The notes below the pieces were generated by a model. It was not told where the DNA came from. It was given only the letters and a program-made list of their open reading frames with translations, and did no database searches. The position numbers and the translations under genes are program-made. Shown here one piece after another: positions 11,055 to 38,326 of a stretch of DNA of 64,000 bases. The DNA lies in the NCBI GenBank assembly GCA_000165345.1, contig CM000430.1, positions 192,001-256,000 on the forward strand, read 5' to 3'. The first letter of the stretch is position 1. Each line of letters opens with the position of its first letter.

Positions 11055-11507
11055 TGCTTCCTATTCTTTTTTTCTTGGCCAAACAATTTTAAATTAATTG
11101 GTATAATTGACCACACAATACACCCTCTTTCTAAAAAAAAAACAAGAAAAAATGTATTTCCACTTCGCAAACTTCTTCCGGTTCCCCCCTATTTGGCTCA
11201 TTTTCAAGTATGAGACATGATGTCTTTAATGATTATTTGAAGGGCTCTATGTTTCCCGCCTATTCTTAAAAAATTATATTAAAAATATACTATGGGGAAA
11301 AAGTTAAGTATTGTGTGGAAAATATGTTTTCTGAGTAAAAATTTGTTGAAATAAAAAAGTGCAATATTTTGACCAAACATTGAAGTTTTGTGATAGTTAT
11401 TGAATAGCTTGGTTGAACACACAATATCGGGCATTTTTGAAGTTCTAATGGTTGATTTTGAAGTAAAATGCTAAATATATTGAAAATATAGGAAAATAAA
11501 TAAGAAA

Positions 11508-12638: not shown

Positions 12639-12971
12639 AATATATAGATTAGAGGTTGAACCATCTCCAATATCCCACAAATATTAACTAGCAATTCGCT
12701 GTTCATAATGTTTATTTTTATTCATATATAAATATCCCCCCTTTCGTATTTTCAATTTTGCATGTATTCTCGCATTTTATTTGCATGTGAATATATTTTA
12801 ATAAATAAAGATCGTTGGCGCCATACGTGTCTTATAAATTAATAGGTCAAATTATTAGCAAAATGCCATTCGATAATAAAAATAGATTGGTCTATTGATA
12901 AGTACTCACAGCTGTTAATAACTACCTAAATAAATATATTTGAAGAATTAAAATTATCCCTATAAGAGAAA

Positions 12972-15900
12972 ATGATTAATAATTCACAGGAACTGGTTCA
13001 AAAAGTGGATGACATTGTACTTCCAGAATGTGAAGATAGAAAGTACAGAGCTTTAGAGCTTAAGAACGGTCTAACAGCCTTTTTAGTATCAGATAAGGAA
13101 ACTAAAACAAGTGGATGCTGCCTTACAGTCTACATTGGAGCTATGTACTCTCCTAAAAATTTAAATGGATTGGCACACTTTTTAGAGCATATGTTATTCT
13201 GTGGAACAAAAAAATATCCGAACGTGGATGAATATCAAAAATTTATTGCAAGCCATGGAGGAAAGAGGCATGGATCTACTACAAGATCAACTACAACATA
13301 TTACTTTGAAATAAAAAATAATGCTTTTAATGAAGCATTGGATAGATTTTCTTCATTCTTTACAGAACCATTGTTTTGCAAGGATATGACAGAAAAAGAG
13401 GTTTCTGCCATTGAAAATGAGTTCCATCTTAAATATCACAGTGATGAAAGAGTTAGATTCCATTTACTTGGTCAATTGTCAAACAAATCACATCCTTTGA
13501 ATTGTTTTACTACCGGGAATAAAGAAACTTTGGAATTCAAACCCAAAAAATTGGGAATCAATCTCCATTCTGAACTTTTAAAGTTCTACTCTTCCTATTA
13601 CAGCAGTAATATTATGTCAATTATTCTTTATGGAAAAGAAGATCTAGACACATTGGAAAAGTATACTATTGAATATTTTTCAAAAATTCCAAATCACCAA
13701 GTTAATTGTTTTGATTATACAAAGATTTTCATGGAAATTCCTCCTTATACAAGAGAAACTTCAATTGGAAAAATTATTAAGTTAATACCTTATGAAACTG
13801 ACAAAAGATTAAAAATCTACTTCCCACTTCCTCCTTTAGACAAATATAACGATAGTTGTGCTCCTGCTTATATTGCAAACATTATTGGACATAAAGGTGA
13901 AGGAGGAATATCATCAATATTAAGAGCTAAAAAACTTGCTACTGGTGCTTCTTTTGCTATTACTAATGAAGATCCATGTGCACTAGCTCAGTTTGGGGTT
14001 GTTCTAACTGATGAGGGGTATAATAATATTGGACAAGTATTGGAAATCATTTTCAACTTTTTAGTATTATTTAAGGCAACACCTGTTATTCCAGAACTAG
14101 TTGATGAGTTTATTGGGATTACTAGAGCAGGTTTTACTTATCAACCCAAATTCTCAATTCGTGACTTATTCTCATTACCAGCAAAGTATCTCAAATACAA
14201 ATGTAAATTTGAAGAAATCCTCTCTTCCGGTTTTGTTGTGAAAAAATTTTCACAAGATGATGTATTCTCTATTTTGGAATACTTAAGTAATGACAATTTT
14301 TTTATCTTACTATCTTCGCAAGCAATTGAGGAGGAGTATAAGAAAAATCAAGAAAACTTTATTGTTGAACATTATTATGGAACAAAATATAGTATTTCAG
14401 AACTAGATGAAGATTTGCTTTCAATAATTAATTCCTCCTCACCAGAAAAGGCTTTAAAACTTGGGTTAATTTTGCCAAAGCCGAATCAATTTGTATCAAC
14501 AGATTTCTCAATATTAAACCCACAAAAGGTTTGTGTTAATGATTACTTGAGAATTCCTGAGCTTCTAAATTTTGATGAATTGAAAGCTCAAGGTAATACC
14601 GATTCTTACAATATTCATTCACATCCTTTAAATATTTGGTTTAAACCAGATTCAACCTTTAATTCTCCTCATTCATTAATCAATATGAGATTAGTTGCTG
14701 AGAGAATTCTAGAATTTAAAGAAAACTCATCTTTTGAGAAATTGTCAAATTTTTCAAATGAATTAGTTTTCCAAGTATTTGGTGAAATCTTAAATGAAGT
14801 TATGTATAGAAGTATGCATGAGCTTTCTTCAGATATATTAGCAGCAAGTTTATCTTATACAATTAATTTCAATTCTAGAACAAATGTATTTGTTTTACAA
14901 GGATTTGGACTTTCTCACAAATTAAATTATTTGATTTCAATAATGTTCGAGAAATTATATCATGGAACAGAGGTTAGAAAATATTATGATGAAGCCATAT
15001 TAATTATAAGCAAAGATTGGAAGAATAAGATAATAAAACCAAATTTGACTTCACTTTCACTAGAATGTATCTCAGAATCTTTGTCACCTTTTTTCTTCAA
15101 TCGTCAAGAAAAATTAAATGTTTTGGAATCATTTACTTTTGAATTGTTTTGTTCTATAAGACAACACTTTTTATCAAACTGTAGACTTGAAGGGTTAATT
15201 ATGGGTAATTTTTCAGAACCAAATGCAAAGTGTATTTCAATACAACATTGGAAAAATTTGATAAATTTCCAGAATTCTGTTAAAAATGAAGTAAAATCTT
15301 GTGGAATAAAAGTAGAACAATTTTCAATTGTTAATTTAAAAAAGGATATTTATACTTTAAATTATATTCCAAATAGTTCGGACAAAAATGGATGTTGGAT
15401 GTTGAGTTTCTTCCTTGGAGAGTATAATTTGAGGAAACAAGTCCTATGTGATTTGATTTTACCGTTTGTCTCAAGTGAAGCTTTTGCTGATCTCAGAACT
15501 AATCAACAACTAGCTTATGTTGTTAGAGCTACACAGATATTTTCTTCTCCTGCAATTATTATTGGATACTATTTACAATCATCTGAGTATACTAATGCTC
15601 TAACTCTTGAGAGGCTTTTAGAGTTTCATATAAACAAAACAAAAGTGGAACTAAAAAGTAAATTGAATAAGGAAATGTTTATAAAATTGAAGGATTCCAC
15701 AATTCAAACCCTTTCATCAAATCCAAAAAGTATCTTTGATGAGTATAAGACTTATCTTCATGAGATTAATGAAAGATCATATTTATTTGATATAAGACAA
15801 AGGAAAATAGATATATTAAATAATGTACAATACAATGAATTTATTGAATTTTATGATAGTATATGGACTTCAAACTCCGTATTAACAGAAATAAGATCTC

Positions 15901-16052
15901 AAATAGATGATACTAAGAATTCTGGTGTGGGTTCTGAATATAAAGATCCATCTATTCCAGAAGGATATTTAAAATTGGAGTCAATTACTCAGATTTCAAG
16001 GAACAAAAATACACCCATGATTTCGCTGGAAGATAAACTAAAGAATTTGTAA
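12972..16052 (+). CDS. Insulinase-like peptidase, M16A family (IDE-like), paralog 1
   Basis: Inverted zinc motif HFLEH at the N-terminal domain plus a downstream ENEF Glu; ~1000 aa four-domain architecture typical of insulin-degrading-enzyme-like proteases. Confidence 0.9.
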   Translation: MINNSQELVQKVDDIVLPECEDRKYRALELKNGLTAFLVSDKETKTSGCCLTVYIGAMYSPKNLNGLAHFLEHMLFCGTKKYPNVDEYQKFIASHGGKRHGSTTRSTTTYYFEIKNNAFNEALDRFSSFFTEPLFCKDMTEKEVSAIENEFHLKYHSDERVRFHLLGQLSNKSHPLNCFTTGNKETLEFKPKKLGINLHSELLKFYSSYYSSNIMSIILYGKEDLDTLEKYTIEYFSKIPNHQVNCFDYTKIFMEIPPYTRETSIGKIIKLIPYETDKRLKIYFPLPPLDKYNDSCAPAYIANIIGHKGEGGISSILRAKKLATGASFAITNEDPCALAQFGVVLTDEGYNNIGQVLEIIFNFLVLFKATPVIPELVDEFIGITRAGFTYQPKFSIRDLFSLPAKYLKYKCKFEEILSSGFVVKKFSQDDVFSILEYLSNDNFFILLSSQAIEEEYKKNQENFIVEHYYGTKYSISELDEDLLSIINSSSPEKALKLGLILPKPNQFVSTDFSILNPQKVCVNDYLRIPELLNFDELKAQGNTDSYNIHSHPLNIWFKPDSTFNSPHSLINMRLVAERILEFKENSSFEKLSNFSNELVFQVFGEILNEVMYRSMHELSSDILAASLSYTINFNSRTNVFVLQGFGLSHKLNYLISIMFEKLYHGTEVRKYYDEAILIISKDWKNKIIKPNLTSLSLECISESLSPFFFNRQEKLNVLESFTFELFCSIRQHFLSNCRLEGLIMGNFSEPNAKCISIQHWKNLINFQNSVKNEVKSCGIKVEQFSIVNLKKDIYTLNYIPNSSDKNGCWMLSFFLGEYNLRKQVLCDLILPFVSSEAFADLRTNQQLAYVVRATQIFSSPAIIIGYYLQSSEYTNALTLERLLEFHINKTKVELKSKLNKEMFIKLKDSTIQTLSSNPKSIFDEYKTYLHEINERSYLFDIRQRKIDILNNVQYNEFIEFYDSIWTSNSVLTEIRSQIDDTKNSGVGSEYKDPSIPEGYLKLESITQISRNKNTPMISLEDKLKNL

Positions 16053-16477
16053 TACATACTTTATTTGCAGGTTATAATACTGTATAATTTCTTAAAATTA
16101 ACACACTCAATAATGAGATTGCAAAAAATTAGTTCAAGACTAAGTAATTTAATTACATTATTTTAAAAAAAAGTCACATAAAAAACACAAAATAGTCAGT
16201 TTCGATTCAAAATTTGTAAATTATTTTTTTTATTTTATTTTTGTATCTGAATATTTGTTATTTCATCCGATAAAGGAAATTATTGCAATTTTGAAATGGC
16301 GGGAACATTCAAAATGTTATGTGGGTTAATAGCACAAATATCTGGGAAAAATGTCAAAAGGGGGGGTAATTTTTGTATAGAAATTAGGCATAAAGATAAA
16401 AATAAAATAATCTGAAAACCAAGAAAAGAAAAAAGAGACACGAGGAAATTATTTTTTCAGAGATTTAAATAGAATAG

Positions 16478-19400
16478 ATGACAGAAATAAAGACGAATTT
16501 AAAAGAAATTCAGAATGAAATAACGAAGCCAATTTATGATGACAACAAATATAGAGCTCTGGTATTGAAAAATAATTTGAGGGTATTATTGGTTCAGGAT
16601 GAGAATACGGATATTTCAGGAGCAAGTATGTCAGTATTTGTTGGTTGTCAGCAAGATCCTGAAGAACTGAATGGCCTTGCCCATTTTTTGGAGCATATGT
16701 TATTTTTAGGCTCAGCCAGACATCCAAACCCTAGTGATTTTGATGACTATATGAAATTGAATGGAGGGAGTTCAAATGCATTCACAGATAATTTGTCAAC
16801 ATCTTACTTTTTCGAAATAAAAAATGAGTCATTTGAGCATGCATTAGACTTATTTTCTGCTTTTTTTATATGTCCTTTATTTGATACAAAGTATGTAGAT
16901 AGGGAAGTTAATGCAGTAAACAGTGAGCATAACAAAAATTTGTTATCAGATTTATGGATAAGATATCATGTAATTTCTTCAATAGCTAGGAATGGGCATC
17001 CATTGAGAAAGTTTGGTACTGGAAGTATAGAAACATTAAAATATGAGCCAGAAAAGAAAGGAATTGATTTGATTGCAGAACTGAAGAATTTTCATAATAA
17101 ATATTATAGTTCAAATAATATGTTTCTTACTTTGGTTTCAAATTGTGATCTTGATGAGCTTGAGAGTTATGCAATAAAGTATTTTTCAGAAATAGTTGAT
17201 AAGAATATTGCTCGTGTTGATTATTTTGGTGAATTCCAAAAAGAAAGACCATATTTAAGTATTATGGAATCTCCAGAAGATGGTGCTCTTGAGTCAATGG
17301 TATATGTAATACCTAATAAAGATGAAAAAAAAGTATCTTTTAATTTTCAGATTCCTGATTTACGTAAATTTAGAAAAGGACTTCCTGAAATGTATTTTAC
17401 AAATATTTTAGGACATGAAGGGCCAGGAAGTTTGACTTCAGCTTTGAGAAGAAATGGTTGGTGTCTTGCTCTAAGCAGCGGATTAAATGAAATGTATTCC
17501 GCTAATTTGTTTGAAATAATAATAACTTTAACAGAGAAAGGTGCAAGAGAAGTTTTGAGTGTTATTGAATACACATTAAATTTTGTGAATTTGGTTATAA
17601 AGAATGAAATAGATATGGAAGTAGTTTCAGATCTTGAAAAACTTTCTCAGCTTGTCTTTGATTATAGAAATAGACCAAGTCTAGATGAAACTATAAGTAA
17701 TAATGTATTTGCTCTTGCAAATTTACCTCCTCTAAAGGAACTTCTTACTTTTGGGAATAGAGTTGAAAAAATGGATGTAGATGCAGTAAAATATCTTAAA
17801 CAATATTTTGATCCCAAGAATATGTTTATTTTACTTTCAATTCCGGAAAATAAAGCTCTTATTGAAGATGAAAGACTTAAAGATAAATTAATTTATGACA
17901 GACATTATAATATAAACTATTTGAAGTTAGAGTTTGGACCAGAAATTAAGGAAATTATCTCTAATATAAGTCTTTCTAATGCTAGCAGATTTGGACTCAA
18001 AATGCCAACAAAAAATAATTATATTCCAGAGAATTTTGACTTAATGAACACGTATGGCGGCAACATGCAGGCATTCCCCACAATTTTGGAGATTCCTGGA
18101 AATTCATTTAGTGACAGAGTGGTTGCATATTATAAGCCTGATACAAATTTTCAAACTCCACACGGTTTTTCTCAATTCTTTTTCTTCTCATCAAGTAAGG
18201 TTACATGTGAATTACTTGTTCTTGATACTTTGACATCTTTAACATTAAGTAAATTTGTTGCAGAAGAGGCTTATAATGCAACCATTGCCAATTTAGACTA
18301 TAAGATTTCGGGTGGGTACAATTTAAGAAATTCAATGAATTGTTTATCTATCACAATTTCTGGTTTTAATGATAAAATGCACACATTATTAAAGTTTTTG
18401 ATCAAATCTCTAGTTGAACTCAAAAATGATGGTAAAAAGCAACTATATAAATCATTCTTTGAAGATGCTCTGGAGGAAAGTAGACTATCAGTCAGAAACT
18501 CACTTTTTAATCCAGATATACTTGCCCATTTGACTTCGTATAATTTCAGGGAGTTTTATTCTGTTTATACTCCTTCAAAAGAGGAGATTTTATCTATATT
18601 AAGTACAACTACATACGAAAGGTTGTGTGATCATATATCAACATTTTTCTCACAGTGTTTGATAAAATCGATCACAGTTGGTAACTTAAATAAGGAACAA
18701 GCACGAGAACTTGTTGAAACTGTGACTATCAAGGAATTGTTATCGTCTGAACAACTAAATTCTAAAATGGAAAAGACTATCATTAGAAACTGCATAGATT
18801 TGGAAAAAGCAATAGAATCAGATCCTGAAATAAAATCCAATAGGATCATTCTATCTAAGTCTGTGATAAACCCAATGGATAAGAATGGTTCAGTTATATA
18901 TTCAATTGATATGGGAGAGTACAATTTAAGAAACTACGTTCTTTTGGAGCTGTTGTCAAAATATTTGGATTCAAATTGCTACTTAGAACTTCGTACAAAT
19001 CAACAATTAGGGTATATTGTGCATGCATGTAGCTATAATTTAAAGCCAGCTATTGGTATTTATGTTTGTGTTCAGTCTTCAGACTTCAGTAATTCTCATG
19101 TTATAAACCGCATTCATAATTTACTTGATGATCTTTTGGTCGTAAAATTATCGGAAAAGCTTGATGAGGATCAGTTTAACATTTTAGTGGATTCTGAAAT
19201 TAAGATTTATTCAAACAAACCAAAAAATATTAAAGAGGAAGTTGCTCAATACTTGACAGCAATCACTAATGGAGAGAGCAATTTTGATTGGAAAGACAAG
19301 TCCATTAAAATTCTTGAAAATTTAACTTATCAAGAATTCTGCTCTTTTGTTACAGATCTAATCAGTAGGCCAAGGACTATTGTACAATCTGTATCAGCCT

Positions 19401-19519
19401 TGGACGCCAGCAAAAAATGTGAAGATGTGGCTAATGATTTTGTTCCAAATGGATTTATAGTTATCAAAGATTTCAAACATTTTAGAAATACTGACGCACT
19501 ACTTAACATAACTATATAA
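16478..19519 (+). CDS. Insulinase-like peptidase, M16A family, paralog 2 (tandem duplicate of the upstream gene)
   Basis: HFLEHMLFLGSARHP zinc motif, REVNAVNSEHNKN distal Glu (IDE: REVNAVDSEHEKN); N-terminal ~130 aa clearly alignable to paralog 1 (KYRALxLKNxL...NGLAHFLEHMLF). Confidence 0.9.
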   Translation: MTEIKTNLKEIQNEITKPIYDDNKYRALVLKNNLRVLLVQDENTDISGASMSVFVGCQQDPEELNGLAHFLEHMLFLGSARHPNPSDFDDYMKLNGGSSNAFTDNLSTSYFFEIKNESFEHALDLFSAFFICPLFDTKYVDREVNAVNSEHNKNLLSDLWIRYHVISSIARNGHPLRKFGTGSIETLKYEPEKKGIDLIAELKNFHNKYYSSNNMFLTLVSNCDLDELESYAIKYFSEIVDKNIARVDYFGEFQKERPYLSIMESPEDGALESMVYVIPNKDEKKVSFNFQIPDLRKFRKGLPEMYFTNILGHEGPGSLTSALRRNGWCLALSSGLNEMYSANLFEIIITLTEKGAREVLSVIEYTLNFVNLVIKNEIDMEVVSDLEKLSQLVFDYRNRPSLDETISNNVFALANLPPLKELLTFGNRVEKMDVDAVKYLKQYFDPKNMFILLSIPENKALIEDERLKDKLIYDRHYNINYLKLEFGPEIKEIISNISLSNASRFGLKMPTKNNYIPENFDLMNTYGGNMQAFPTILEIPGNSFSDRVVAYYKPDTNFQTPHGFSQFFFFSSSKVTCELLVLDTLTSLTLSKFVAEEAYNATIANLDYKISGGYNLRNSMNCLSITISGFNDKMHTLLKFLIKSLVELKNDGKKQLYKSFFEDALEESRLSVRNSLFNPDILAHLTSYNFREFYSVYTPSKEEILSILSTTTYERLCDHISTFFSQCLIKSITVGNLNKEQARELVETVTIKELLSSEQLNSKMEKTIIRNCIDLEKAIESDPEIKSNRIILSKSVINPMDKNGSVIYSIDMGEYNLRNYVLLELLSKYLDSNCYLELRTNQQLGYIVHACSYNLKPAIGIYVCVQSSDFSNSHVINRIHNLLDDLLVVKLSEKLDEDQFNILVDSEIKIYSNKPKNIKEEVAQYLTAITNGESNFDWKDKSIKILENLTYQEFCSFVTDLISRPRTIVQSVSALDASKKCEDVANDFVPNGFIVIKDFKHFRNTDALLNITI

Positions 19520-20060
19520 ATAGAACATCTTTTTTTCTCGCTCTTCCTTTTTAGCTGGACAAAATTACTTATAAATCACCATGCAGACTTAAACAGACAA
19601 GTTAAATCAACATTAGAACAAAATACTGGCACTTATGAGATTTACATCATACGTATCTATTTCAGACTAATTTAAATTCAAATATCTGTATATTCACAAG
19701 TTAAGAAATTTATTTGACAAGGACTACTTATTAAGAAAAAGATAACTAGTTTAGAATCATTAGAAATGTAGATCAACAATTATATTATCTCATTGGAGAA
19801 AACAATTTTTTAAAAATTTCTTCATTTTTTTATGAATTTACTATCATTTTGACAATTTTAATTAGAATTTTTAAAGGATATTTGCAATTTAGGCGGGAAG
19901 TGAAAAAACGACATAAATACTTACTATAGAGGAAACAATAATGGAGGAATAATATTAAGATAAAATAGCAAAAGTAAATCTTTTAAGTATATAATAGGTT
20001 AAAAGTAATTTTAAATACTAATTATTTGGAACATTTTGATGGGATTATCTAAGGATTACA

Positions 20061-23000
20061 ATGAATAAGTATCTACTTATTTACCATTTTTTCCTACAGG
20101 TGGTAATTCTATTATCAATTAATGGAATTTCATTAGGAAAAGAATCTGATTTGGTAGATAACGAGGAATGTGAAAATCCGGAGTATTTGTTTCCCTGGGG
20201 GAACGATTATCTTAATTCATGTTTGAGTTTTCAATGCCATAGGGTCCGAGAACATAAAAGTTGGTATCGCTTTTGGGAAAAAAAACCAAAATATGTTCAT
20301 AAAAATATTAATGGAAGTGAACGGGTGATACAATGTTCAGACTGTGAAGGTTTTTTAAAGAAAGGAGCTCTATTTGGTGGAATGTCAATTTGTACTCCAA
20401 TTGAGTTTGGTGGTAGTTTTGATATACCAAAAGGTTGGGTATCTATAGCTACTGCAAGCTTGCAATTAAATAAGGAAATTAAGAATAAAAGCTCAATTAA
20501 GTTAATTCCAGATAACTGGAGAATTGATGGACAGACTAAAAAGACAACCTTGGACTTGTCCGCTTGTTCCACTTCTGATGATTCTGAAGTAGCTTTATCT
20601 ATATTAGTAACTTTATCAAATATAGCCGAACCTTCCAGAAAGTCCTCAAAATATAGACGTATTTTGGGTCTTCATGATGATTCAATTAATGTGAGGATTA
20701 AAACTCTTGGAGTTGATATGGGAGACTCAGCGGATGGTTTTGACGATGATGATTTGGATGATGACTTTGATGACGAATTTGATAGTGAAGATGTTCAACA
20801 AAGCATGCAACCTGATAATGGGTATAATGAGTACTTTTTGTATGATATGAATAAATTAGCTTCAACACAGCATAGGGTACCTAGAGACAACCCATCCAAG
20901 GGCAAAAAAAATAAGCGAAAAGTAAGAAAGCAAAAACCATTTACTGGTGCAGAAAAACTCCCAAGAAAATGGAAACTTAGCAAAGGCCATGCTTCGATAT
21001 ATTCATCGTCCGATGTTGTGAGGCTTGATCTTGCTTCAGATATTCACCCCAATGAACTTGTCCAAGTTATTCTTACATGTAATAACAAATATATGAATTG
21101 CAATATCCAAGACTTTGTTTCGTGCTTCAATATTCTCTGTAGATCTGTAACCAAGGAAGAGCTTATTCGTAGAGCAGCTTTAATGAAAGCTAAACGGTTC
21201 ATTTCAAATTCTATTATTTCAGGTCAAGTAGTGCCTAAAATGGCTTATAACGGCATGCCATTTCAACCCGGTTTCCCGCCTGCTATTCCAGGGCCTTTCA
21301 ATGGTCAATTCCAGTATCCACATGCAAATAATATAGTAAATGGGAATTTCATACAAAGAAATTCAACTTTGCCTATTCAAGGAGTTTCGAGTGTAGGAGC
21401 AAATTATATTCAAAATAGGGGAAAAAATGGGATTGTTATGGTTAACAATGGAGTAGGAAAGCCTGCTGAAGTAAGTAACCAAGCTAACGTTTTTGTTGGA
21501 AATAATGATGGCGTACAAAATGTAAATATAAATACCAATACTAAGACTGCTGGAATTTCTAATATTTCCCTTCAGCAACCTCCTGCAAATGTTAAAACTT
21601 CTCAGAGTACCGCAGCATCAAAGGGTATTCAAATAATTTTTGTACCAGCACAGAGTCAAACGAATGCCCACTGCCAAAGCCAAACTAACATGGTTAATGT
21701 AAATAAAGCTGTGACTAAATCATCGTTAAAACAGAAAAAGCAAAAAACCTTCATAAGTCAAAACATCATTCCAAAGGAAAACACTAATATTCCAAATCAA
21801 ATTAATAATCCTCAAATACCTACACCAAAACAATCTAAGTCTCAAATAAACCAGATCGGAGTTTATGGCCCTGCTAATCACACCGTTGTTACCTCGTATA
21901 ACTCAAATGTATTAAACACTGATATTTATCAAACTTCCTCTGAGAAAAACTTGGAGAGTCAACCAACAACAGTTTGTATACTAGCTATGGAACCTAAAAG
22001 TGAATCTAAAGTAAATGTTGCGAGTTCAAACACAATTCAGCCCGTAGAACAAACTCAATTCAGCAATGTAAAACAAGATGTTACAGTAGTTTTTAATCCT
22101 ATAAATACAGTTACAAAAACCTCAAAAACTAGCAAACGCAATACTGTGAAACAAACAACAACTAAAACTCAAGCACCAACTTTAAATATTTTATTAGTTC
22201 CTAGTAAGACTGTTAAAAGAAAGAATAATTTCAAGAAAGTTTCTAAAGTCTCTAAAAACGAGGTTAAACATGCAAATAAAACAGTAGACATTATTTTGTT
22301 AAATAGTAATTTAAATCATAAACCTAAAAAGGCTGTTGATAAAAGTAATTCAGATTATATGGCTTTGAATACAAATAATGTCCTAAAACCTCCAAAAATA
22401 ATAACAGGCAAGATAACCTACAAATTGCCTAAAAAAATCAAGAAAAGTAGCAAATCAACAAAGCCAGAGTTTAATATTATAGATACCATAGTTTTAGAAA
22501 AGGTTGATAATAAGGAACCCAGAAACAAAATTGAAAAGTTAGTCCCTGTGGATAGCTCTTCTTTAAGTGATGAGAATATTTTATTATCAGATTCTGAAAT
22601 TAGTAGCCAATACATTTCTAGTAGCCAGAAGAAACATTCTAGACAGTCGCATAGCTCCCGTTCGAAGAATAAAGCTCATAGAAAGAAGTCCATAAAAGTT
22701 ATATCTCGAGAAGACGGAGCAACTGAAAACGTTCTGCTAGATTCCAACAAACATATTTCTAATTCCGATAATAAGGCTTCTTCGGTCAAAGTAGAAAAAT
22801 ATATTCTACATCCAGTTGGCACTTCAGAAAGTTCTGAGGACTCTGAAAGTTTTAGCGAATATGAATTTGGCTCGGAAGAAATTGGATATCTGAGTGATGA
22901 AGATTTCAGTGCCCTAATTCTGAAAAAAGTTAAAGATGATTCTGCAAAGTCAGATAAATCAGTGAAAACGGAGTCCAATTCTAAAGTCTCTATTCAGTCA

Positions 23001-23252
23001 CAGAAAACAAAAAACGAAGATGATGATCAAGTTAATGAGGAGATAAAGATCAAAAATATAGAAAAGAGTGAATCTAAAGTTGAAATAGAAAATAGCCCTT
23101 TAAGTGATTCTTCTGATTATGAAATTTTTACCAAACAAAAACATTATAATTACGAAACAAGAAGCACAATGAAGTCTATCTTGGGATATTCAATATTGAT
23201 CAGTGTTTTTCTGTTCATAGTGTTCATTATTATGAAACTACTCCTGCTTTAA
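20061..23252 (+). CDS. Large secreted mucin-like glycoprotein (1063 aa): signal peptide, Cys-containing N-terminal domain, poly-acidic stretch, long Thr/Ser/Asn/Lys-rich low-complexity region, C-terminal hydrophobic GPI-anchor-type tail
   Basis: N-terminus MNKYLLIYHFFLQVVILLSINGISLG; DDDDLDDDFDDEFDSEDV; T/S/K/N/Q-rich repeats (TKTSKTSKRNTVKQTTTKTQAPT...); the extreme C-terminus SILGYSILISVFLFIVFIIMKLLLL has no cytoplasmic tail. Confidence 0.7.
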   Translation: MNKYLLIYHFFLQVVILLSINGISLGKESDLVDNEECENPEYLFPWGNDYLNSCLSFQCHRVREHKSWYRFWEKKPKYVHKNINGSERVIQCSDCEGFLKKGALFGGMSICTPIEFGGSFDIPKGWVSIATASLQLNKEIKNKSSIKLIPDNWRIDGQTKKTTLDLSACSTSDDSEVALSILVTLSNIAEPSRKSSKYRRILGLHDDSINVRIKTLGVDMGDSADGFDDDDLDDDFDDEFDSEDVQQSMQPDNGYNEYFLYDMNKLASTQHRVPRDNPSKGKKNKRKVRKQKPFTGAEKLPRKWKLSKGHASIYSSSDVVRLDLASDIHPNELVQVILTCNNKYMNCNIQDFVSCFNILCRSVTKEELIRRAALMKAKRFISNSIISGQVVPKMAYNGMPFQPGFPPAIPGPFNGQFQYPHANNIVNGNFIQRNSTLPIQGVSSVGANYIQNRGKNGIVMVNNGVGKPAEVSNQANVFVGNNDGVQNVNINTNTKTAGISNISLQQPPANVKTSQSTAASKGIQIIFVPAQSQTNAHCQSQTNMVNVNKAVTKSSLKQKKQKTFISQNIIPKENTNIPNQINNPQIPTPKQSKSQINQIGVYGPANHTVVTSYNSNVLNTDIYQTSSEKNLESQPTTVCILAMEPKSESKVNVASSNTIQPVEQTQFSNVKQDVTVVFNPINTVTKTSKTSKRNTVKQTTTKTQAPTLNILLVPSKTVKRKNNFKKVSKVSKNEVKHANKTVDIILLNSNLNHKPKKAVDKSNSDYMALNTNNVLKPPKIITGKITYKLPKKIKKSSKSTKPEFNIIDTIVLEKVDNKEPRNKIEKLVPVDSSSLSDENILLSDSEISSQYISSSQKKHSRQSHSSRSKNKAHRKKSIKVISREDGATENVLLDSNKHISNSDNKASSVKVEKYILHPVGTSESSEDSESFSEYEFGSEEIGYLSDEDFSALILKKVKDDSAKSDKSVKTESNSKVSIQSQKTKNEDDDQVNEEIKIKNIEKSESKVEIENSPLSDSSDYEIFTKQKHYNYETRSTMKSILGYSILISVFLFIVFIIMKLLLL

Positions 23253-23670
23253 TTACTCAGAGAATTTAATTTTTAGTTCTGGCGGGAAACGAGTGTAATT
23301 TAATCAAATGTTTATTGATACTTCACGGACGTTAAGTTTTTTTTTAATTTATCCATCATTAACACATTTTAACTAGTAAGTCTAAGAATGAAGAGTCAGA
23401 AATTATGCTTTAGTTTTTTAGATTTATTTTAATTCAATTATTATTTCATTAGAGTAGGTATTTAGGTATTTTTAAGGATTTTTTCATGATTTCCGTTTTC
23501 CGGATATATGCCATATTCTCAGTAAATAATAACTTAAACCTAGTAGGGATAAATTAGTAACTTGGATTTATTATAGAAAACGAAACATGGCAAAACTTAT
23601 TTGTTTTATAACTATTGCAATAATATTGAGATTTTTCTTCCAAACAAATGAATTTTCTGTCAAATTGTGG

Positions 23671-23682
23671 TTGGCGCCAAGT
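23671..23682. promoter_or_regulatory. E2F-like palindrome TTGGCGCCAAG ~115 nt upstream of the gene at 23796
   Basis: ggttggcgccaagttg; a second GGCGGGAAAC at 23281-23290 lies just downstream of the mucin gene stop. Confidence 0.4.
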
Positions 23683-23795
23683 TGTCTTTTGAGATAAATA
23701 ACAGAAATTATTCAAGGAATTCAAAAGTATTGTAAACCAGACAGATGATGAATACATTATGATAGTAAAGAAGGCACACATTGTTTTAGTTTAAA

Positions 23796-25109
23796 ATGAT
23801 AGTAGATTTAGAATTATATCCTAAACAGTCACTCAGATTATTATTGTTTATTAATGAGCAAGAAAAACAAAGTAAGAAAAGTACAAAATTTCTGGAATAC
23901 TGTAATGAAGAGGAAGTAAAAGAATTCCAATATTTGGATGAAGAAGATAGAATAATTATATCTGAGAGCTTCAGGGAAGTGGTGAGAGCTGAAATTAGAG
24001 AGTATATTGATTTATACATGGAGCAGTACCAAGAACCATTAAATGATAAAGAAGCTTTGGATATTAATGAAAAGCAATATACAGTTTACGGGAATTTTCA
24101 ACTCTTCAATGAACAAAAAGACACTATTTTATGGGACCTACTAACATTATTGATATACCTAGATAGCATGAATCCACAAATATGGGATAGAAGGGCAGTA
24201 TTAATAGGAGAATTATTACAAAGAATAGGATTGGAATCTGAATATATGAGATTCTTAAGCAGTGAGTTAAATCTTACAAAGCTCGCACTATGTCATACCT
24301 TTAAGTATGGGGAAATCTGGAGTTATTTGGAGTACATATTAACTGAATACTATGAAAGAATTAAAGGAAACGAGTTTAAAAGTTTGAATAATGATGAAAT
24401 TATCAATTATGTTTTAAAAGATAATTTTGAGTTTATTTGTCTACAGATAGACTCCTATGAACACAACTACCATGCTTGGAGTTTAGTTAATTGGTTAATT
24501 TATGAATTAATCCCTACAATAATTTCATCAGATGATTCAAATAAGCCTTATAAATACAATGAAATCAGGATGATCGAAAGTTGGGTAATCAAATTATTAC
24601 AAAGACATCCATCTCATTATGGAGGTTACCATGCGCTTGTGAATCTGAATGAAAGCAAAATTAATTCACAAAGTAAATCAAATAAGCTCGAAGTATGCAC
24701 AGTAATAGGGTTAGTGTACCCAGAAGAAATTATTAATATGCTTAGAGTTATTATTGAGTGTTTTGATCATCATCTTATTAACTGTTTCTCAGTAATTCTA
24801 GGCTTCAGATATGCTAATTTCATGCTTTTGATTGATTCAGTAGATGAAAGATCTCATCTTGAAATTTTTGAAAACGAAATAATGTGGTTTCAAAAACAAG
24901 ATTTGGTTGAAAAAATGTCCAAGAGTCCGAAACATCTTGAAGAATTGAGAGAACACTTTTACTCCATTTTATCAGAGATATCAAGCTATAATTATAATAA
25001 AAGCATTATACAAAAATTCTACGACCTATTAGATTCAGAAATACAAATAATAAGGCAAGAATCAACGCTGTTTTACAATAGTGATTGTTCCTATAAAGGA
25101 CTGGTTTGA
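23796..25109 (+). CDS. Hypothetical helical-repeat protein; possible protein prenyltransferase alpha-subunit-like (PPTA) repeats
   Basis: Trp-centred repeat motifs NPQIWDRRAVLIGEL and HNYHAWSLVNWLIYEL resemble the PPTA N(Y)HAW..R.W(V/L) signature; otherwise no strong match. Confidence 0.45.
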   Translation: MIVDLELYPKQSLRLLLFINEQEKQSKKSTKFLEYCNEEEVKEFQYLDEEDRIIISESFREVVRAEIREYIDLYMEQYQEPLNDKEALDINEKQYTVYGNFQLFNEQKDTILWDLLTLLIYLDSMNPQIWDRRAVLIGELLQRIGLESEYMRFLSSELNLTKLALCHTFKYGEIWSYLEYILTEYYERIKGNEFKSLNNDEIINYVLKDNFEFICLQIDSYEHNYHAWSLVNWLIYELIPTIISSDDSNKPYKYNEIRMIESWVIKLLQRHPSHYGGYHALVNLNESKINSQSKSNKLEVCTVIGLVYPEEIINMLRVIIECFDHHLINCFSVILGFRYANFMLLIDSVDERSHLEIFENEIMWFQKQDLVEKMSKSPKHLEELREHFYSILSEISSYNYNKSIIQKFYDLLDSEIQIIRQESTLFYNSDCSYKGLV

Positions 25110-25322
25110 GCTATTCACACTAAATTTTTCCCACAACTAATCAATTGATTGCTAATTTAACAAGGTTATAATTTATACTATTTGGCGCCATTTGCCCACA
25201 ATATTAAATACCACATGTAATATAAATTAATCTTGAAGTTAAAGGAAAAATTAGAAAGCAGATGTTCTAGAATACTGAAGTAGTACTCAAGGGTGTAATT
25301 TGTAGGTAATTTATTCACTAAA

Positions 25323-27155
25323 ATGGCAGATACTCACTATCCAAATGGAAGCTTTGAAGAATATGAAGAAGAGAGCGTATATGAAATGGATAGATTAAAT
25401 ATTAATGATGAGTATATTGATGAACAAGGCGCAGAACATAATACTTCTGCATGCGCTACTAATTTGGGACTGTATAACTTTGACAGCGAGGATGATGAGA
25501 TATCAAGAGAAATTTATAAAGGATATGGAATAAAAAATGAGACAGATGGCTCAGTTACTGAAACTGAAAGAACAATCCATGAAAATGAAAATGAGAAAGA
25601 AAGTCAATTGAAAACACCACCAAAAAGACCATTTTTAAGGAAGGGAGAAGGTAAGTCCTTGGTAATAAGTAACTCAAGAAAAGCAAATGGAGAATCTATT
25701 TCTAGAAGAAGTTCCCAAATTAGGTCGAACGCAGCAGCCAAGATTGTTCCGAGCTCAGCTCCTTCCAGAAGGTTTATACGTTCAAACAAGTCAGTTGTGC
25801 CAGAAGCAGGTAGAAACAGCAAACTAGACTCGTTATTATTGGGAATTGAAAGCTCAAATTTGACCACCGAGAGTGGGGTGGAAGGATTTGAAATCTTCGA
25901 TGCTGAAGAAGAGTTTCTAGGGATTGACTGGGGCAAAGAACAGAATATTGTCAATGCAAAAAGTAATAGGGATGAGAAAATTAAGGGAAATATTACAGAA
26001 AAGGACCAAGAAAAAGACTATGACAAATTGATTCAACAAAAGTTGGATTTACTTGATGAGAAGATGGAATATATACATGAGACACACGAGGAAATGCTTA
26101 AGAAAAAGACTTTGTTGGCCAGAGAAAGAAAACTTCTTGAAAGCCAAAAAGTGACTTTTGAAAAAGAGTTGAGGGCTAAGTTTGAAAAGAGTAAGCAAGA
26201 AATAGAATCAGAAAAACGACGTTTGGAAAGAGAAAATAACAAGCTAACCAAGGATAAGATTGCCTTGAGCGATCAGGTAACTCGTTTAAAGATGACAATC
26301 AAGGCAAAAGACGCTGAGATCAATCGACTCACTAAAGAAATTACAATGATGGAGAAGAAAGAAAAAGAGAGAGAAAGTATGCAAAATAGAATCCCTATAG
26401 GAAAGAAAGAAAGCTCATCTGAAAGTGTGGAAAAGAAACGAGCTGTTAATCTGAGAGCTAATAATCAGAAAAATGGAGAATTTGAAAGAGCCAGACTTGC
26501 AGGAAACACCGGTATTACTACATTGACTACCAATTTGCAGACGACTACATCAATTTCTTCCAACTCTTCAGGTTCATTTATAGATCGGGATTTAGTTATT
26601 GAAGAACAATTGGCAGCCTTTGACTTTGAAAAGGAATTGGATTTACTATATGGAATCTTAAGTACTTGCTTTGAGTTTGTAAGTGAAGGGGAAGACTTCA
26701 CAACTTTACCAGGTATTCCTGAAGACGTAGGGAGACCATGGTGTGATATTGAAAAGCCGTATAAAGTTCAGAAAGACGACGATTTGAGAACTATTACCTA
26801 TAAGTTCCCTAGTGGACTTGTTGAAATTGTATTTTATGATGAGCAAGAGGATTCTGTTTGTCCAAAAAACACAAGAAAGTTACTTTGGACTCATCTTGGT
26901 TGGTGTATTCTAGTTTATCCAAATGGAGATATTAAAGCAATCAAACCTGACAAAAATATTACTTACCATTATGTTGAAAAAGATATTGTAAAATGCGTAG
27001 TAAGTACTATGGATCTATTGAACTATGATGGAGAAACAACTAAGCTACATTTTAGCAAGTTTTTCTCTCTTGGGCAGTTGCAATGTGTCGATCCTGAGAC
27101 TAGAAAAACATACATAATTCATTCCGATATGTCTAAGCAAATCCTTAATGGTTGA
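25323..27155 (+). CDS. Coiled-coil protein with a C-terminal beta-rich region resembling the G-box (TCP10_C) repeat of CPAP/SAS-4
   Basis: Central heptad-rich region (KKKTLLARERKLLESQK...EKRRLERENNKLTKDK); C-terminal YKFPSGLVEIVFYDEQ...LVYPNGDIKAIKPDKNITYHY...NYDGETTKLHF follows the FPDGT/YPNG G-box periodicity. Confidence 0.55.
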   Translation: MADTHYPNGSFEEYEEESVYEMDRLNINDEYIDEQGAEHNTSACATNLGLYNFDSEDDEISREIYKGYGIKNETDGSVTETERTIHENENEKESQLKTPPKRPFLRKGEGKSLVISNSRKANGESISRRSSQIRSNAAAKIVPSSAPSRRFIRSNKSVVPEAGRNSKLDSLLLGIESSNLTTESGVEGFEIFDAEEEFLGIDWGKEQNIVNAKSNRDEKIKGNITEKDQEKDYDKLIQQKLDLLDEKMEYIHETHEEMLKKKTLLARERKLLESQKVTFEKELRAKFEKSKQEIESEKRRLERENNKLTKDKIALSDQVTRLKMTIKAKDAEINRLTKEITMMEKKEKERESMQNRIPIGKKESSSESVEKKRAVNLRANNQKNGEFERARLAGNTGITTLTTNLQTTTSISSNSSGSFIDRDLVIEEQLAAFDFEKELDLLYGILSTCFEFVSEGEDFTTLPGIPEDVGRPWCDIEKPYKVQKDDDLRTITYKFPSGLVEIVFYDEQEDSVCPKNTRKLLWTHLGWCILVYPNGDIKAIKPDKNITYHYVEKDIVKCVVSTMDLLNYDGETTKLHFSKFFSLGQLQCVDPETRKTYIIHSDMSKQILNG

Positions 27156-29566: not shown

Positions 29567-30079
29567 TTTAATCTAAGGCTCCCTTTTATAAATTCTTGAA
29601 TGTCACTGATTACACTATTTCTTTTGAATCTAATTACAATCTAGATAATCTCATTTTATCAAAATTTATCCCCTTTTGTTACTTCCAGTAATTATCCCTT
29701 TCACACAAATTTTTTTTGATTATTTTCTGGTTATTTAAACATATATTAATTTATTAGCGCATTATTATACAAATATTGGCGCTAAAAAAAGTACCGTATT
29801 ATTTTGACCAGGAAAAAAGCAAGGACAAAAAGAATAGGGAATAGGAATACTTGATTCAAAAAAAGTTTAAAGTTTTCTTGGACTAGAGCTTCGAAATTCG
29901 GATTTAGGACTGAATGTCTCTTAGGAGTTTGACTGCTCTTTAGTCTAGAGGGATCCAGAGGAAAACACAAAAGGTAGTCGTTTTTAGAGCTGAATAGTTT
30001 ACCAACGGAAAGGTAGCAAACAACCATCTATCTGGATTCTTAATACTTATAAGACAGAGTTAGGTGTATTTTAATAATC

Positions 30080-30697
30080 ATGGACAGTAGTGATAACCGA
30101 TTTTTTCGAGCAAGGAGGACGCTTTGTGAGATGCTAGAGGATAGGGGGTACATTGTTTCAAGCCAAGATAAAGAGGAAGACTTTTCAACCTTTAAGGAAA
30201 GGTTCGAGTCTCATCAACGCTTGAGGTCGAGGATGCTGATGGTTGCTTCCCATAGACAGGACCAAACTAAGCGAATTATTTGTTATTTTGCAGATGAATC
30301 AAAGAAAACCGGAGTCAAGCCAATTAGAGATATTGTAGAAAAGATGGATGAGCATGCGATACAACGAGCAATACTTATTTCTCAAAATGTATTGACAGCT
30401 CATGCTAAAGTGGCCATACTAGATGCTGCTCCGAAACATTATATTGAGAGCTTTTTGGAAAACGAGCTTTTGGTTAATATTACTAAGCATGAGTTAGTTC
30501 CTAAGCATATTTTATTATCAGACGACGAAAAGCTTCAACTTTTGGATAGATATAAAATCAAAGAAACTCAACTACCAAGGATCCAATATGCTGATCCAGT
30601 TGCTCGCTATTTTGGTTTGGCTAAAGGCCAAGTCGTCAAAATCATTCGTCCTTCAGAAACTGCTGGTAGATATGTCACTTATAGGTTGGTAGTATAG
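30080..30697 (+). CDS. RPB5: DNA-directed RNA polymerases I/II/III subunit RPABC1 (RPB5)
   Basis: The C-terminus [41 protein letters not shown] is near-identical to human POLR2[41 protein letters not shown]. Confidence 0.93.
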
Positions 30698-31216
30698 AGG
30701 TGGGTTCTATTTACAAGCAGCTCCAGTTTCTATTAATTAGTACTATACAACAATAGCTAGTAGAAATGATGGATAGACTAGTAGCTACGCTAGAGAACTA
30801 ACATCTATTTGTCACTAACAATCCTGAAAACAAACATTCTCTTCACTCTATTCTCTCCCACACCTAACCTAACAAAGAAAAACAAAGGGATCAAGTTATG
30901 CATCCATTATCTTAAATCCTATGTTAATTATCTAAGTAATACAAAATCTTTTGGGCTAAAGATCCCCAAATACTAACGCCAAGTGTTAACAAAAATGGTA
31001 TTCAAAGTAAAATACCCATAAGTAAACTTGCATTGTTATTAAAACTTCGAGTTCGCTTTATTCAAGAGAAATGTAATTCTTTTTGAAATCCAAACAATAG
31101 TTGAGTTTCAATTAAAAATATAGCAAGAGTAAATTCAAGTCATATTTTTAAAAGTACTTGAGCTTGCATAACAGCATAAAATACCGTCTATCGTCATCTA
31201 TTTTTACTTTTCACGA

Positions 31217-33163: not shown

Positions 33164-33295
33164 ATCATAATAAGCACTCTGACAAAAAATTCACTTTGCC
33201 AAGTAATAATAGTATTCATTATGGCTATATTGGAAGTATTATCAGTATCGCAGCAGCGATAGGATCAGTAGAATTTGCCATGTTTGTGGTCCCGG

Positions 33296-33430: not shown

Positions 33431-33622
33431 AAAACAATAAATTTCTCCTCCTTAGTCTCCGGTATGCATGCAAGACCCAAGTCTAGATATGGTTATGGGA
33501 GGATCCAAATATTCTGTTCCAGAGGCACTGAACTCCAGACCTCATATAACAGGGTCCACAATAACTTTGTCAAACATAATTACACTTCTTTGTTCAAATA
33601 TTAACAAGAGGGCTTCCATCTT

Positions 33623-36562: not shown

Positions 36563-38326
<1,764 letters not shown>

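What the first reader, a model, noticed from the sequence alone, without database searches (positions are those of the whole stretch)
20061..23252. Large mucin-like surface protein with a modular layout: Cys domain, poly-Asp block, Pro-rich linker, ~600 aa Thr/Ser/Asn/Lys-rich region, GPI-type tail
This is the only long low-complexity secreted gene in the window. The N-terminal ~200 aa are a Cys-containing globular module of unknown fold. The rest is predicted to be heavily O-glycosylated. Proteins of this kind are candidate adhesins or antigens in apicomplexans and are often polymorphic.
Basis: partly seen in the sequence, partly recalled or inferred. Interest (0 to 1): 0.55.

Follow-up and report, generated by a model that had tools for sequence, protein, structure and literature searches.

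The report
Sporozoite membrane protein, not a mucin
This is the annotated but uncharacterised Cryptosporidium parvum gene cgd2_940: a secreted, membrane-anchored sporozoite protein with a strongly conserved cysteine-containing head, also found in two early-branching gregarines, on a long, fast-evolving, positively charged spacer, and it is not a true mucin.

Summary
The ORF is real and sits exactly at 20061..23252 (+), 1063 aa. It is 100% identical to C. parvum Iowa II cgd2_940, annotated "signal peptide plus transmembrane domain or GPI anchor".

The signal peptide, acidic block, short Pro-rich stretch and C-terminal hydrophobic tail are all there. "Mucin-like" is not supported:
- S+T is 17% overall and at most 31% in any 100 residues.
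- No S/T run is longer than 3, and there are no repeats.
- S+T falls to 11-15% in many orthologues.

The conserved unit is a two-part head (aa 40-216 and 296-392) with 10 invariant Cys and dN/dS of 0.06-0.11. It has no Pfam or PDB match, and two AlphaFold runs failed. Its only relatives outside Cryptosporidium are in Selenidium and Siedleckia. In Selenidium the module is a standalone secreted protein.

The ~600-aa spacer evolves fast (dN/dS 0.53, 20% identity across the genus) but keeps its length and net positive charge. The hydrophobic tail is conserved, and a canonical GPI omega-site is weak.

Published data show mRNA about 40-fold enriched in sporozoites and IgG against the N-terminal array segment in at least 10% of infants.

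Best reading: a membrane-tethered head-on-stalk zoite protein, probably a binding or adhesion protein. Function is untested.

The parts
20061..23252 (+). Complete single-exon ORF of cgd2_940 (1063 aa plus stop)
   Evidence: ORF listing. Identical to C. parvum Iowa II EAK88860.1. The neighbouring ORF 16478..19519 is cgd2_930, matched by its 3042-bp length and published primer sequences (PMC8074150). [quoted passage not shown]
20061..20138 (+). Signal peptide, aa 1-26 (MNKYLLIYHFFLQVVILLSINGISLG|K)
   Evidence: Hydrophobic core. Small residues at -3 and -1 are read from the sequence. The pattern is kept in orthologues. No SignalP run was possible.
20178..20708 (+). Conserved head, first half (Na, aa 40-216), with invariant C54, C59, C92, C95, C111 and C169
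   Evidence: Alignment A1. Mean pairwise identity 0.69 across the genus. dN/dS 0.06. Homologous to Selenidium and Siedleckia proteins.
20709..20810 (+). Acidic (poly-Asp/Glu) block, aa 217-250, in the variable loop of the head
   Evidence: Net charge -16, pI 4.05. The whole aa 217-295 loop is only 30-31 residues in C. andersoni/C. muris, and the block has no counterpart in Selenidium.
20811..20945 (+). Basic Lys/Arg block, aa 251-295, second part of the variable loop
   Evidence: Net charge +8, pI 10.2. The whole loop has dN/dS 0.23 and 0.33 identity.
20946..21236 (+). Conserved head, second half (Nb, aa 296-392), with invariant C340, C347, C355 and C360 and a terminal helix
   Evidence: Alignment A1. 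Identity 0.72. dN/dS 0.11. Aligned to the C-terminal part of the Selenidium protein.
21237..23090 (+). Fast-evolving hydrophilic spacer, aa 393-1010. It opens with a Pro-rich stretch, is K/N/S-rich and net basic (aa 393-830, +36), and becomes acidic and Ser-rich near the membrane (aa 831-1010, -8)
   Evidence: dN/dS 0.53. Identity 0.20. Length 562-622 aa in intestinal species and always net positive. No repeats. Charge map.
23091..23174 (+). Conserved juxtamembrane segment, aa 1011-1038 (SPLSDSSDYE...NYETRSTMK)
   Evidence: Conserved islands S1013, E1032 and K1038. dN/dS 0.10 for aa 1011-1063.
23175..23249 (+). C-terminal hydrophobic anchor, aa 1039-1063 (SILGYSILISVFLFIVFIIMKLLLL): a transmembrane helix or a GPI signal
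   Evidence: Hydropathy. Identity 0.61 across the genus, against 0.39 for the signal peptide. Crude omega-site scan.
19892..19899 (+). GGCGGGAA (E2F-like) motif 162 bp upstream of the start codon; a possible promoter element
   Evidence: 6 copies in the window against 0.23 expected by chance. This copy is conserved in C. meleagridis. A regulatory role is inferred, not tested.

Best explanation
cgd2_940 encodes a type-I-oriented secretory membrane protein of the invasive zoite stage, built as a head on a stalk.

Proposed mechanism:
1. After signal-peptide cleavage, an N-terminal module of about 370 aa forms the functional head. It is probably disulfide-bonded (10 invariant Cys, in two halves joined by a charged loop).
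2. The head is held away from the membrane by a spacer of about 600 aa. The spacer is hydrophilic, net positive and probably disordered. Its sequence is free to drift, but its length and charge are maintained.
3. The protein is fixed in the membrane by a conserved C-terminal hydrophobic segment with essentially no cytoplasmic tail. This is either a transmembrane helix or a GPI signal.
4. The head is the ancestral unit, because in the archigregarine Selenidium it exists alone as a small secreted protein.
5. The most likely role is binding a host or parasite ligand at the sporozoite surface or the host-parasite interface. It is not a glycan-bearing mucin.

Shown here: gene identity, architecture, conservation pattern, taxonomic range, expression and seroreactivity.

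Inferred: disulfides, disorder, surface exposure and the binding function.
For: - Architecture and identity.
- Head under strong purifying selection (dN/dS 0.06 and 0.11) versus spacer at 0.53.
- Genus-wide identity 0.69/0.72 for the head versus 0.20 for the spacer.
- Spacer length 562-622 aa and net charge +6 to +36 kept in all intestinal species despite sequence turnover.
- By the charge-hydropathy rule the spacer is borderline disordered (GRAVY -0.75, net +28 in 618 aa) while the head halves are not.
- The head is homologous to Selenidium pygospionis and Siedleckia nematoides proteins (HMMER E 7e-11 and 4e-4 against 1.84 billion proteins; hhalign 97% each).
- Selenidium P0026 is a signal peptide plus the head only.
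- The anchor is more conserved than the signal peptide (0.61 vs 0.39) and has dN/dS 0.10.
- The mRNA is in the sporozoite-upregulated set, log2 CPM about 13.8 versus 8.4 and 8.6 at 24 and 48 h: PMC6877471 supplement.
- IgG to the first array segment is seroprevalent in infants: PMC10425216.
Against: - There is no localisation or functional data for this protein. The C. parvum hyperLOPIT paper and several supplements could not be read or did not list it.
- The fold of the head is unknown. There is no Pfam or PDB match, and two AlphaFold2 runs failed (pLDDT 29 and 38.5). 'Binding module' is therefore an analogy, not a finding.
- High sporozoite mRNA does not prove surface exposure. The protein could sit in a secretory organelle or the oocyst residuum.
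- Array segment s2 and all IgA signals were not seroprevalent.
- Which residues the array segments s1 and s2 cover was not verified.
Confidence: 0.55

Rival explanations
1. One reading: a GPI-anchored, heavily O-glycosylated mucin-like surface glycoprotein comparable to gp900, gp40/15 or the CpMuc proteins. Its long region would act as a glycan-bearing stalk and be polymorphic among isolates.
For: There is a signal peptide, and a hydrophobic tail ends exactly at the C-terminus with no cytoplasmic domain. The long region has reduced complexity and 20.8% S+T. Expression is sporozoite-enriched. GenBank's own annotation allows a GPI anchor. Scattered S/T could still carry some O-GalNAc.
Against: S+T is at most 31% per 100 aa, the longest S/T run is 3, and there are no tandem or internal repeats. 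S+T in the same region is only 11-15% in the chipmunk genotype, C. ubiquitum, C. ryanae and others, so S/T richness is not under selection. No length polymorphism is seen among 3 C. parvum and 4 C. hominis sequences. In C. parvum the only small-residue omega/omega+2 pair (G1042-Y-S) lies inside the hydrophobic stretch with no polar spacer, and the 'GKS' candidate of other species is not conserved (my own heuristic). The tail is conserved well beyond what a cleaved signal usually needs.
Confidence: 0.12
2. A micronemal-type adhesin that is shed by intramembrane proteolysis. The conserved anchor is a true transmembrane helix. Its invariant L-G-Y-S-I-L motif near the outer leaflet would be a rhomboid cleavage site, releasing the head and stalk after secretion.
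For: The anchor is strongly conserved, including G1042/Y1043 (invariant) and S1044 (nearly invariant), which are helix-destabilising residues. L1041 / S1044 / L1046 fit the P4-hydrophobic / P1-small / P2'-hydrophobic pattern described for rhomboid substrates (my knowledge; not tested). C. parvum has three rhomboids, and CpROM1 is in micronemes and at the host-parasite interface (PMC8710574). Expression is sporozoite-enriched.
Against: None of the adhesive domains typical of micronemal adhesins is present. There is no cytoplasmic tail for sorting or motor coupling (sequence). cgd2_940 is not listed in that paper's text or supplements. The motif match is short and could be chance.
Confidence: 0.15
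3. An internal secretory-pathway or oocyst-stage structural protein, for example a component tethering sporozoites inside the oocyst or a dense- or small-granule membrane protein. The basic spacer would bind acidic matrix or wall material rather than host ligands.
For: The transcript peaks in oocyst-derived sporozoites. The spacer is strongly basic in all species. The protein was not among the protective antigens (PMC10425216).
Against: It is also moderately expressed in sorted asexual stages and in females (log2 CPM 9.3 and 8.1-8.9). IgG responses in infants show exposure to the host. The standalone head in Selenidium argues for a function that does not depend on oocyst architecture.
Confidence: 0.15

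Closest known systems
cgd2_940 / EAK88860.1 / CPATCC_000852 of Cryptosporidium parvum (annotated 'signal peptide plus transmembrane domain or GPI anchor')
   Same: 100% identical protein, with the same neighbours cgd2_910, cgd2_920 and cgd2_930.
   Different: Nothing differs; this is the same gene. The public annotation gives no domain, function or relatives outside the genus.
Cryptosporidium mucin-like glycoproteins (gp900, gp40/15 = gp60, CpMuc family)
   Same: Signal peptide, expression in invasive stages, low-complexity regions and antigenicity. gp15 is also lipid-anchored (established knowledge).
   Different: Those proteins carry poly-Thr or poly-Ser tracts and PTS-type domains and show length polymorphism (established knowledge). 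Here S+T is at most 31% per 100 aa, no run exceeds 3, there are no repeats, no length polymorphism, and S/T content is not conserved.
Apicomplexan micronemal type I adhesins (TRAP/MIC2 family, CpTSPs)
   Same: Signal peptide, an extracellular head presented on a spacer, a single C-terminal membrane span, and zoite-stage expression.
   Different: There is no TSR, vWA, Apple/PAN or EGF domain. There is no cytoplasmic tail, so no acidic/Trp motor-coupling motif. The head is an unclassified domain.
Uncharacterised transcripts of Selenidium pygospionis (EP00923_P050550-2, GHVN010873xx) and Siedleckia nematoides (EP00918_P066032)
   Same: Homologous head module with the same Cys pattern: CLxxxC, QCxxCxG, CTPxxFGG and TC..C..SCF..C.
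   Different: About 24-36% identity. The Selenidium protein is 369 aa and ends after the head, with no spacer and no membrane anchor. The Siedleckia sequence is a fragment.

Membership tests
Mucin-like (PTS-domain) glycoproteins | An extended domain dominated by Ser/Thr (roughly 40% or more, usually with Pro), typically as S/T runs or tandem repeats | tested here: not met
   Maximum S+T is 31% per 100 aa and 25% per 200 aa. The longest S/T run is 3. There are no tandem repeats beyond the short acidic block and no internal repeats. The 40% threshold is from my knowledge of mucin-domain predictors.
Mucin-like (PTS-domain) glycoproteins | S/T richness maintained by selection in orthologues | tested here: not met
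   Spacer S+T is 19.4% in C. parvum but 11-15% in several orthologues. Lys/Arg content and net positive charge are what is kept.
Mucin-like (PTS-domain) glycoproteins | Dense O-glycosylation demonstrated | not testable with these tools
   No glycosylation predictor or glycoproteomic data was available.
GPI-anchored proteins | N-terminal signal peptide plus a hydrophobic segment at the extreme C-terminus with no cytoplasmic domain | tested here: met
   Hydropathy peaks only at aa 4-25 and about 1036-1063, and the protein ends ...MKLLLL.
GPI-anchored proteins | An omega-site with small residues at omega and omega+2, followed by a polar spacer of about 5-10 residues before the hydrophobic tail | tested here: inconclusive
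   In my own rule-based scan, C. parvum has only G1042-Y-S, which is embedded in the hydrophobic stretch (spacer hydropathy +3.2). The better 'GKS' or 'NET' candidates in other species are not conserved. PredGPI, NetGPI and big-PI were not available.
GPI-anchored proteins | Release by PI-PLC, or lipid-anchor chemistry | not testable with these tools
   This needs an experiment.
TRAP/MIC2-type micronemal adhesins | Recognised adhesive domains (TSR, vWA/I, Apple/PAN, EGF) | tested here: not met
   No Pfam family matched the full protein at E<=1 or any of 8 family members at E<=10.
TRAP/MIC2-type micronemal adhesins | Cytoplasmic tail with acidic residues and a sub-terminal Trp | tested here: not met
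   Only KLLLL follows the hydrophobic core.
cgd2_940-type head domain (unnamed family: Cryptosporidium plus archi-/blastogregarines) | A two-part module of about 290 conserved residues with the Cys pattern C-x4-C ... C-x2-C ... C-T/L-P ... C ... T-C-x4-6-C-x6-7-C-x4-C and the FGG / PxGW motifs | tested here: met
   10 Cys are invariant in 13 Cryptosporidium sequences. 9 align in Selenidium P0026. The tenth is matched, by my reading, in the insert of isoform P0027. 5 are present in the Siedleckia fragment.

The most novel reading that the evidence does not exclude
The ~370-aa head defines a previously undescribed, ancient extracellular domain family restricted to Cryptosporidium and early-branching gregarines (Selenidium, Siedleckia). 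These are lineages that attach to and feed on the host cell from an epicellular or extracellular position. On this reading the family is part of the shared attachment and feeding-interface toolkit, and Cryptosporidium converted a soluble secreted factor into a membrane-tethered one by adding a stalk and an anchor.
Probability: 0.15. Interest if true: 0.6.

Novelty: new variant of a known kind. Interest (0 to 1): 0.33.

Why it matters
Cryptosporidium has no vaccine and few defined invasion ligands. cgd2_940 is a single-copy gene conserved across the genus. By the published CPM values it makes up about 1.4% of normalised sporozoite mRNA counts, and infected infants make IgG against part of it.

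Showing that its conserved part is a structured, slowly evolving head changes which part is worth expressing, imaging or targeting. The variable 'mucin' region is the less useful part.

The link to Selenidium and Siedleckia adds one more molecular character shared between Cryptosporidium and gregarines. It also gives an entry point to ask whether their attachment biology uses common parts.

As it stands, the gene is already annotated and its function is unknown, so the finding is a useful re-description and not a surprise.

Tried and rejected
- Pfam scans of the full protein (E<=1) and of 8 head sequences (E<=10) found nothing credible.
- A profile search of all PDB sequences gave no hit at E<=10.
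- AlphaFold2 on the whole head with 12 Cryptosporidium sequences gave pLDDT 29. On the first half with gregarine sequences added it gave pLDDT 38.5. Both models are unusable, so I ran no fold search.
- Word-seeded searches with the Cryptosporidium+gregarine alignment and with Selenidium P0026 alone found only Selenidium isoforms.
- The exhaustive HMMER search also returned a bacterial 1729-aa repeat protein (P0023, E 1e-10 summed over 7 repeats). In hhalign, one repeat matches aa ~115-185 at only 60% probability, and the repeat has no Pfam name. I kept it as a weak hint of a beta-sandwich and not as homology.
- Cryptic repeats in the spacer: self-BLAST found none. The recurring hydrophobic triplets (IIFVP, ILLVP, IILLN...) are not more frequent than in shuffles (11 vs 7.9 +/- 2.3, p = 0.13).
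- Positive selection on the spacer was rejected on average (dN/dS 0.53). I did not run site-level tests.
- Localisation from the literature: the hyperLOPIT paper (PMID 36958336) is not held. cgd2_940 is absent from, or no supplement text is held for, PMC13599311, PMC12782386, PMC13241007, PMC5070614 and PMC8710574. PMC2805294 is not held.
- I queried 'Chro.20105' as a guessed C. hominis identifier. Its identity as the orthologue was not verified, so those rows are not used.
Full report
**Observation**

The window is Cryptosporidium parvum chromosome 2.
- The ORF immediately upstream (16478..19519) is 3042 bp. It starts and ends with the published cloning-primer sequences for cgd2_930 (CpINS-4) (PMC8074150).
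- The ORFs before that are a second M16 insulinase and a protein kinase. These match cgd2_920 and cgd2_910.
- The translated ORF is 100% identical to C. parvum Iowa II EAK88860.1, "signal peptide plus transmembrane domain or GPI anchor".
- Intact orthologues of 840-1077 aa exist in C. hominis, C. tyzzeri, C. meleagridis, C. ubiquitum, C. canis, C. felis, C. bovis, C. ryanae, C. andersoni, C. muris and others. Synteny is conserved in C. meleagridis.

The ORF is therefore a real gene, with no frameshift and no contamination.

**Anatomy**

Hydropathy shows only two hydrophobic segments, at aa 4-25 and about aa 1036-1063.

The N-terminus looks like a signal peptide. It has MNK, a 16-residue hydrophobic core, then S-L-G|K with small residues at -3 and -1. 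This reading is rule-based; SignalP was not available.

- aa 40-216 carries invariant C54, C59, C92, C95, C111 and C169.
- aa 296-392 carries invariant C340, C347, C355 and C360 and ends in a predicted helix.

The acidic block (aa 217-250, net -16) and a basic block (aa 251-295, net +8) form a variable loop between the two halves. The loop is about 80 residues in most intestinal species (59 and 58 in C. bovis and C. ryanae). It is only 30-31 residues in the gastric species C. andersoni and C. muris.

After the head comes a short Pro-rich stretch, with 7 Pro in aa 401-450. A 618-aa hydrophilic region follows (aa 393-1010), then a conserved juxtamembrane segment, then the hydrophobic tail.

**Is it mucin-like?**

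No.
- Composition is S 11.9%, K 10.7%, N 9.0% and T 5.4%.
- S+T is 17% overall. Other ORFs in the same window have 10-17%.
- In aa 430-1030, S+T is 20.8%. The richest 100-aa window has 31%, and no S/T run exceeds three residues.
- Tandem Repeats Finder reports only the short GAT-rich acidic block. Self-BLAST of the spacer finds no internal repeat.
- S/T richness is not conserved. In the aligned spacer, S+T is 19.4% in C. parvum but 11-15% in the chipmunk genotype, C. ubiquitum, C. ryanae and others.
- What is conserved is length (562-622 aa in intestinal species, 465-482 aa in gastric species), Lys/Arg content and a net positive charge (+6 to +36, pI 8.7-10.0).
- In C. parvum, aa 393-830 carries net +36. 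The membrane-proximal aa 831-1010 is acidic and Ser-rich, at net -8.

**Evolutionary pattern**

dN/dS values below are Nei-Gojobori estimates against C. meleagridis, where dS is 0.20-0.30 in every region of 50 codons or more. Identity is the mean pairwise identity across the genus.

| Region | dN/dS | Identity |
|---|---|---|
| Signal peptide | n/a | 0.39 |
| Head, first half (aa 40-216) | 0.06 | 0.69 |
| Loop (aa 217-295) | 0.23 | 0.33 |
| Head, second half (aa 296-392) | 0.11 | 0.72 |
| Spacer (aa 393-1010) | 0.53 | 0.20 |
| Juxtamembrane plus anchor (aa 1011-1063) | 0.10 | n/a |
| Anchor alone (aa 1039-1063) | n/a | 0.61 |
| Neighbouring genes | 0.12-0.17 | n/a |

Within-species and between-species variation is modest:
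- Three distinct C. parvum sequences are all 1063 aa. They differ by 0-5 substitutions, all in the spacer.
- C. hominis (1062 aa) differs by 66-68 substitutions, 56-57 of them in the spacer, and three single-residue indels.
- C. tyzzeri has one 6-aa deletion plus three single-residue indels.

So the spacer evolves under relaxed constraint, not obvious diversifying selection, and there is no repeat-length polymorphism. In line with this, cgd2_940 was one of the 61 "neutrally evolving" genes used for C. hominis phylogenomics (PMC8552020).

**What is the head?**

It matches no Pfam family and no PDB sequence.

An exhaustive HMMER profile search of 1.84 billion representative proteins found only three things outside Cryptosporidium:
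- a transcript of the archigregarine Selenidium pygospionis (E 7e-11)
- a transcript of the blastogregarine Siedleckia nematoides (E 4e-4)
- a bacterial repeat protein

Profile-profile comparison supports both gregarine matches at 97% probability. The Selenidium match covers both halves of the head. The Cys-containing motifs line up: CLxxxC, QCxxCxG, CTPxxFGG and TC...C...SCF...C. By my reading, a Selenidium isoform with an insert also supplies the equivalent of C169.

The longest Selenidium form (369 aa) has its own signal peptide and ends right after the head's terminal helix. It has no spacer and no anchor. The head therefore looks like the ancestral, self-sufficient unit. The stalk and anchor look like Cryptosporidium additions. 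This is an inference, because the Selenidium sequence is a transcript model.

The bacterial hit is probably not homology. One repeat aligns to aa ~115-185 at only 60% hhalign probability. At most it hints that this stretch is beta-rich.

Two AlphaFold2 attempts failed, with pLDDT 29 and 38.5. The fold remains unknown and I ran no structure search. Further word-seeded searches added no relatives.

**GPI or transmembrane?**

The tail (SILGYSILISVFLFIVFIIMKLLLL) ends the protein, so either is possible. This is also what the public annotation says.

In a simple rule-based scan, C. parvum has only one small-residue omega/omega+2 pair, G1042-Y-S. It lies inside the hydrophobic stretch with no polar spacer. 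The more canonical G-K-S seen in C. canis, C. felis, C. bovis and C. ryanae is M-K-S in C. parvum, C. hominis and C. meleagridis, and G-K-Y in C. ubiquitum.

The tail is much better conserved than the signal peptide (0.61 against 0.39). K1038, G1042 and Y1043 are invariant, S1044 is nearly invariant, and there is a Lys or Arg five residues from the end in all species except C. muris. I read this as mild evidence that the segment stays in the mature protein as a transmembrane helix. The L-G-Y-S-I-L motif could be a rhomboid site, but that is speculative. C. parvum does have three rhomboids, one of them micronemal (PMC8710574). This question is not settled here.

**Expression and antigenicity (published data)**

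In the Tandel et al. 2019 supplements, cgd2_940 is in the sporozoite-upregulated gene set. Its log2 CPM values are 13.80/13.71/13.78, against 8.36/8.34/8.38 and 8.65/8.65/8.56. By the sample order these are sporozoite, 24 h and 48 h. That is about 40-fold enrichment, and 2^13.8 is about 1.4% of normalised counts.

Sorted asexual stages give 9.30. Females give 8.07 in vitro and 8.90 in vivo.

On the Gilchrist et al. 2023 protein array the gene was printed as two segments. IgG to segment s1 is coloured red, which means seroprevalent in at least 10% of one-year-old Bangladeshi infants. Segment s2, and IgA to both segments, are grey. The protein is not among the antigens associated with protection.

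**Explanation**

The evidence fits a head-on-stalk membrane protein of the invasive stage. It has a conserved, probably disulfide-bonded head. The head sits on a long, basic, probably disordered spacer whose length and charge matter more than its sequence. A conserved C-terminal segment fixes the protein in the membrane. A binding or adhesive role for the head is the most economical inference, but it is untested.

The rivals are:
- a rhomboid-shed, micronemal-type adhesin
- an internal or oocyst-stage structural protein

Each is listed with the result that would refute it.

**Novelty**

The gene itself is annotated, so its existence is not new. Three points are new here:
- the mucin label does not hold
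- the functional core is an unclassified two-part Cys domain under strong constraint
- this domain is shared with Selenidium and Siedleckia and, as far as HMMER can see, with nothing else

I rate this a new variant of a known kind (apicomplexan zoite membrane or secreted proteins), of moderate to low interest until localisation and function are known.

Noticed in passing
window 11253-11260 (-), 16298-16305 (+), 19892-19899 (+), 21273-21280 (-), 23281-23288 (+), 49987-49994 (+): The E2F-like octamer GGCGGGAA occurs 6 times against 0.23 expected by chance. Five copies lie in intergenic regions, four of them upstream of the + strand genes cgd2_910, cgd2_930, cgd2_940 and the next gene. The copy upstream of cgd2_940 is conserved in C. 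meleagridis.
   Followed up: partly
window 19520-20060, 23253-23795, 16053-16477, 25110-25322 versus L001: Intergenic regions are about 89-90% identical between C. parvum and C. meleagridis. Synonymous sites of the flanking genes differ at 17-24%. The short intergenic regions therefore seem more constrained than silent coding sites.
   Followed up: partly
window 12972-16052 and 16478-19519 (+): Tandem pair of four-domain M16 insulinase-like peptidase genes (cgd2_920 and cgd2_930 = CpINS-4). Neither has an N-terminal hydrophobic signal in the crude screen.
   Followed up: partly
window 11508-27155 (+): Six consecutive genes on the same strand (kinase, two insulinases, cgd2_940, a 437-aa protein with a weak prenyltransferase-alpha repeat hit, and a 610-aa protein with a weak CPAP tubulin-binding hit), separated by short spacers.
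   Followed up: no
window 30001-40000: GC content rises to 0.37-0.41 over about 10 kb, against roughly 0.27-0.35 in the rest of the window.
   Followed up: no
window 60574-61542 (-): A 322-aa ORF whose only hydrophobic segment is at the extreme C-terminus (aa 291-322), a tail-anchored-protein layout.
   Followed up: no
P0023 (ENA metagenome protein, 1729 aa), repeats at aa 483-1266: Bacterial protein with seven near-identical repeats of about 113 aa. The repeats have no Pfam assignment and weakly resemble aa ~115-185 of the cgd2_940 head (hhalign 60%; motif NKSSLTFTPSNW against NKSSIKLIPDNW).
   Followed up: partly
P0013 (C. muris CMU_009440) and P0012 (C. andersoni): The C. muris gene model starts 49 alignment columns later than the others and lacks a signal peptide, so the annotated start is probably too far downstream. 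Both gastric species have a spacer about 100-150 aa shorter and a much shorter head loop.
   Followed up: no
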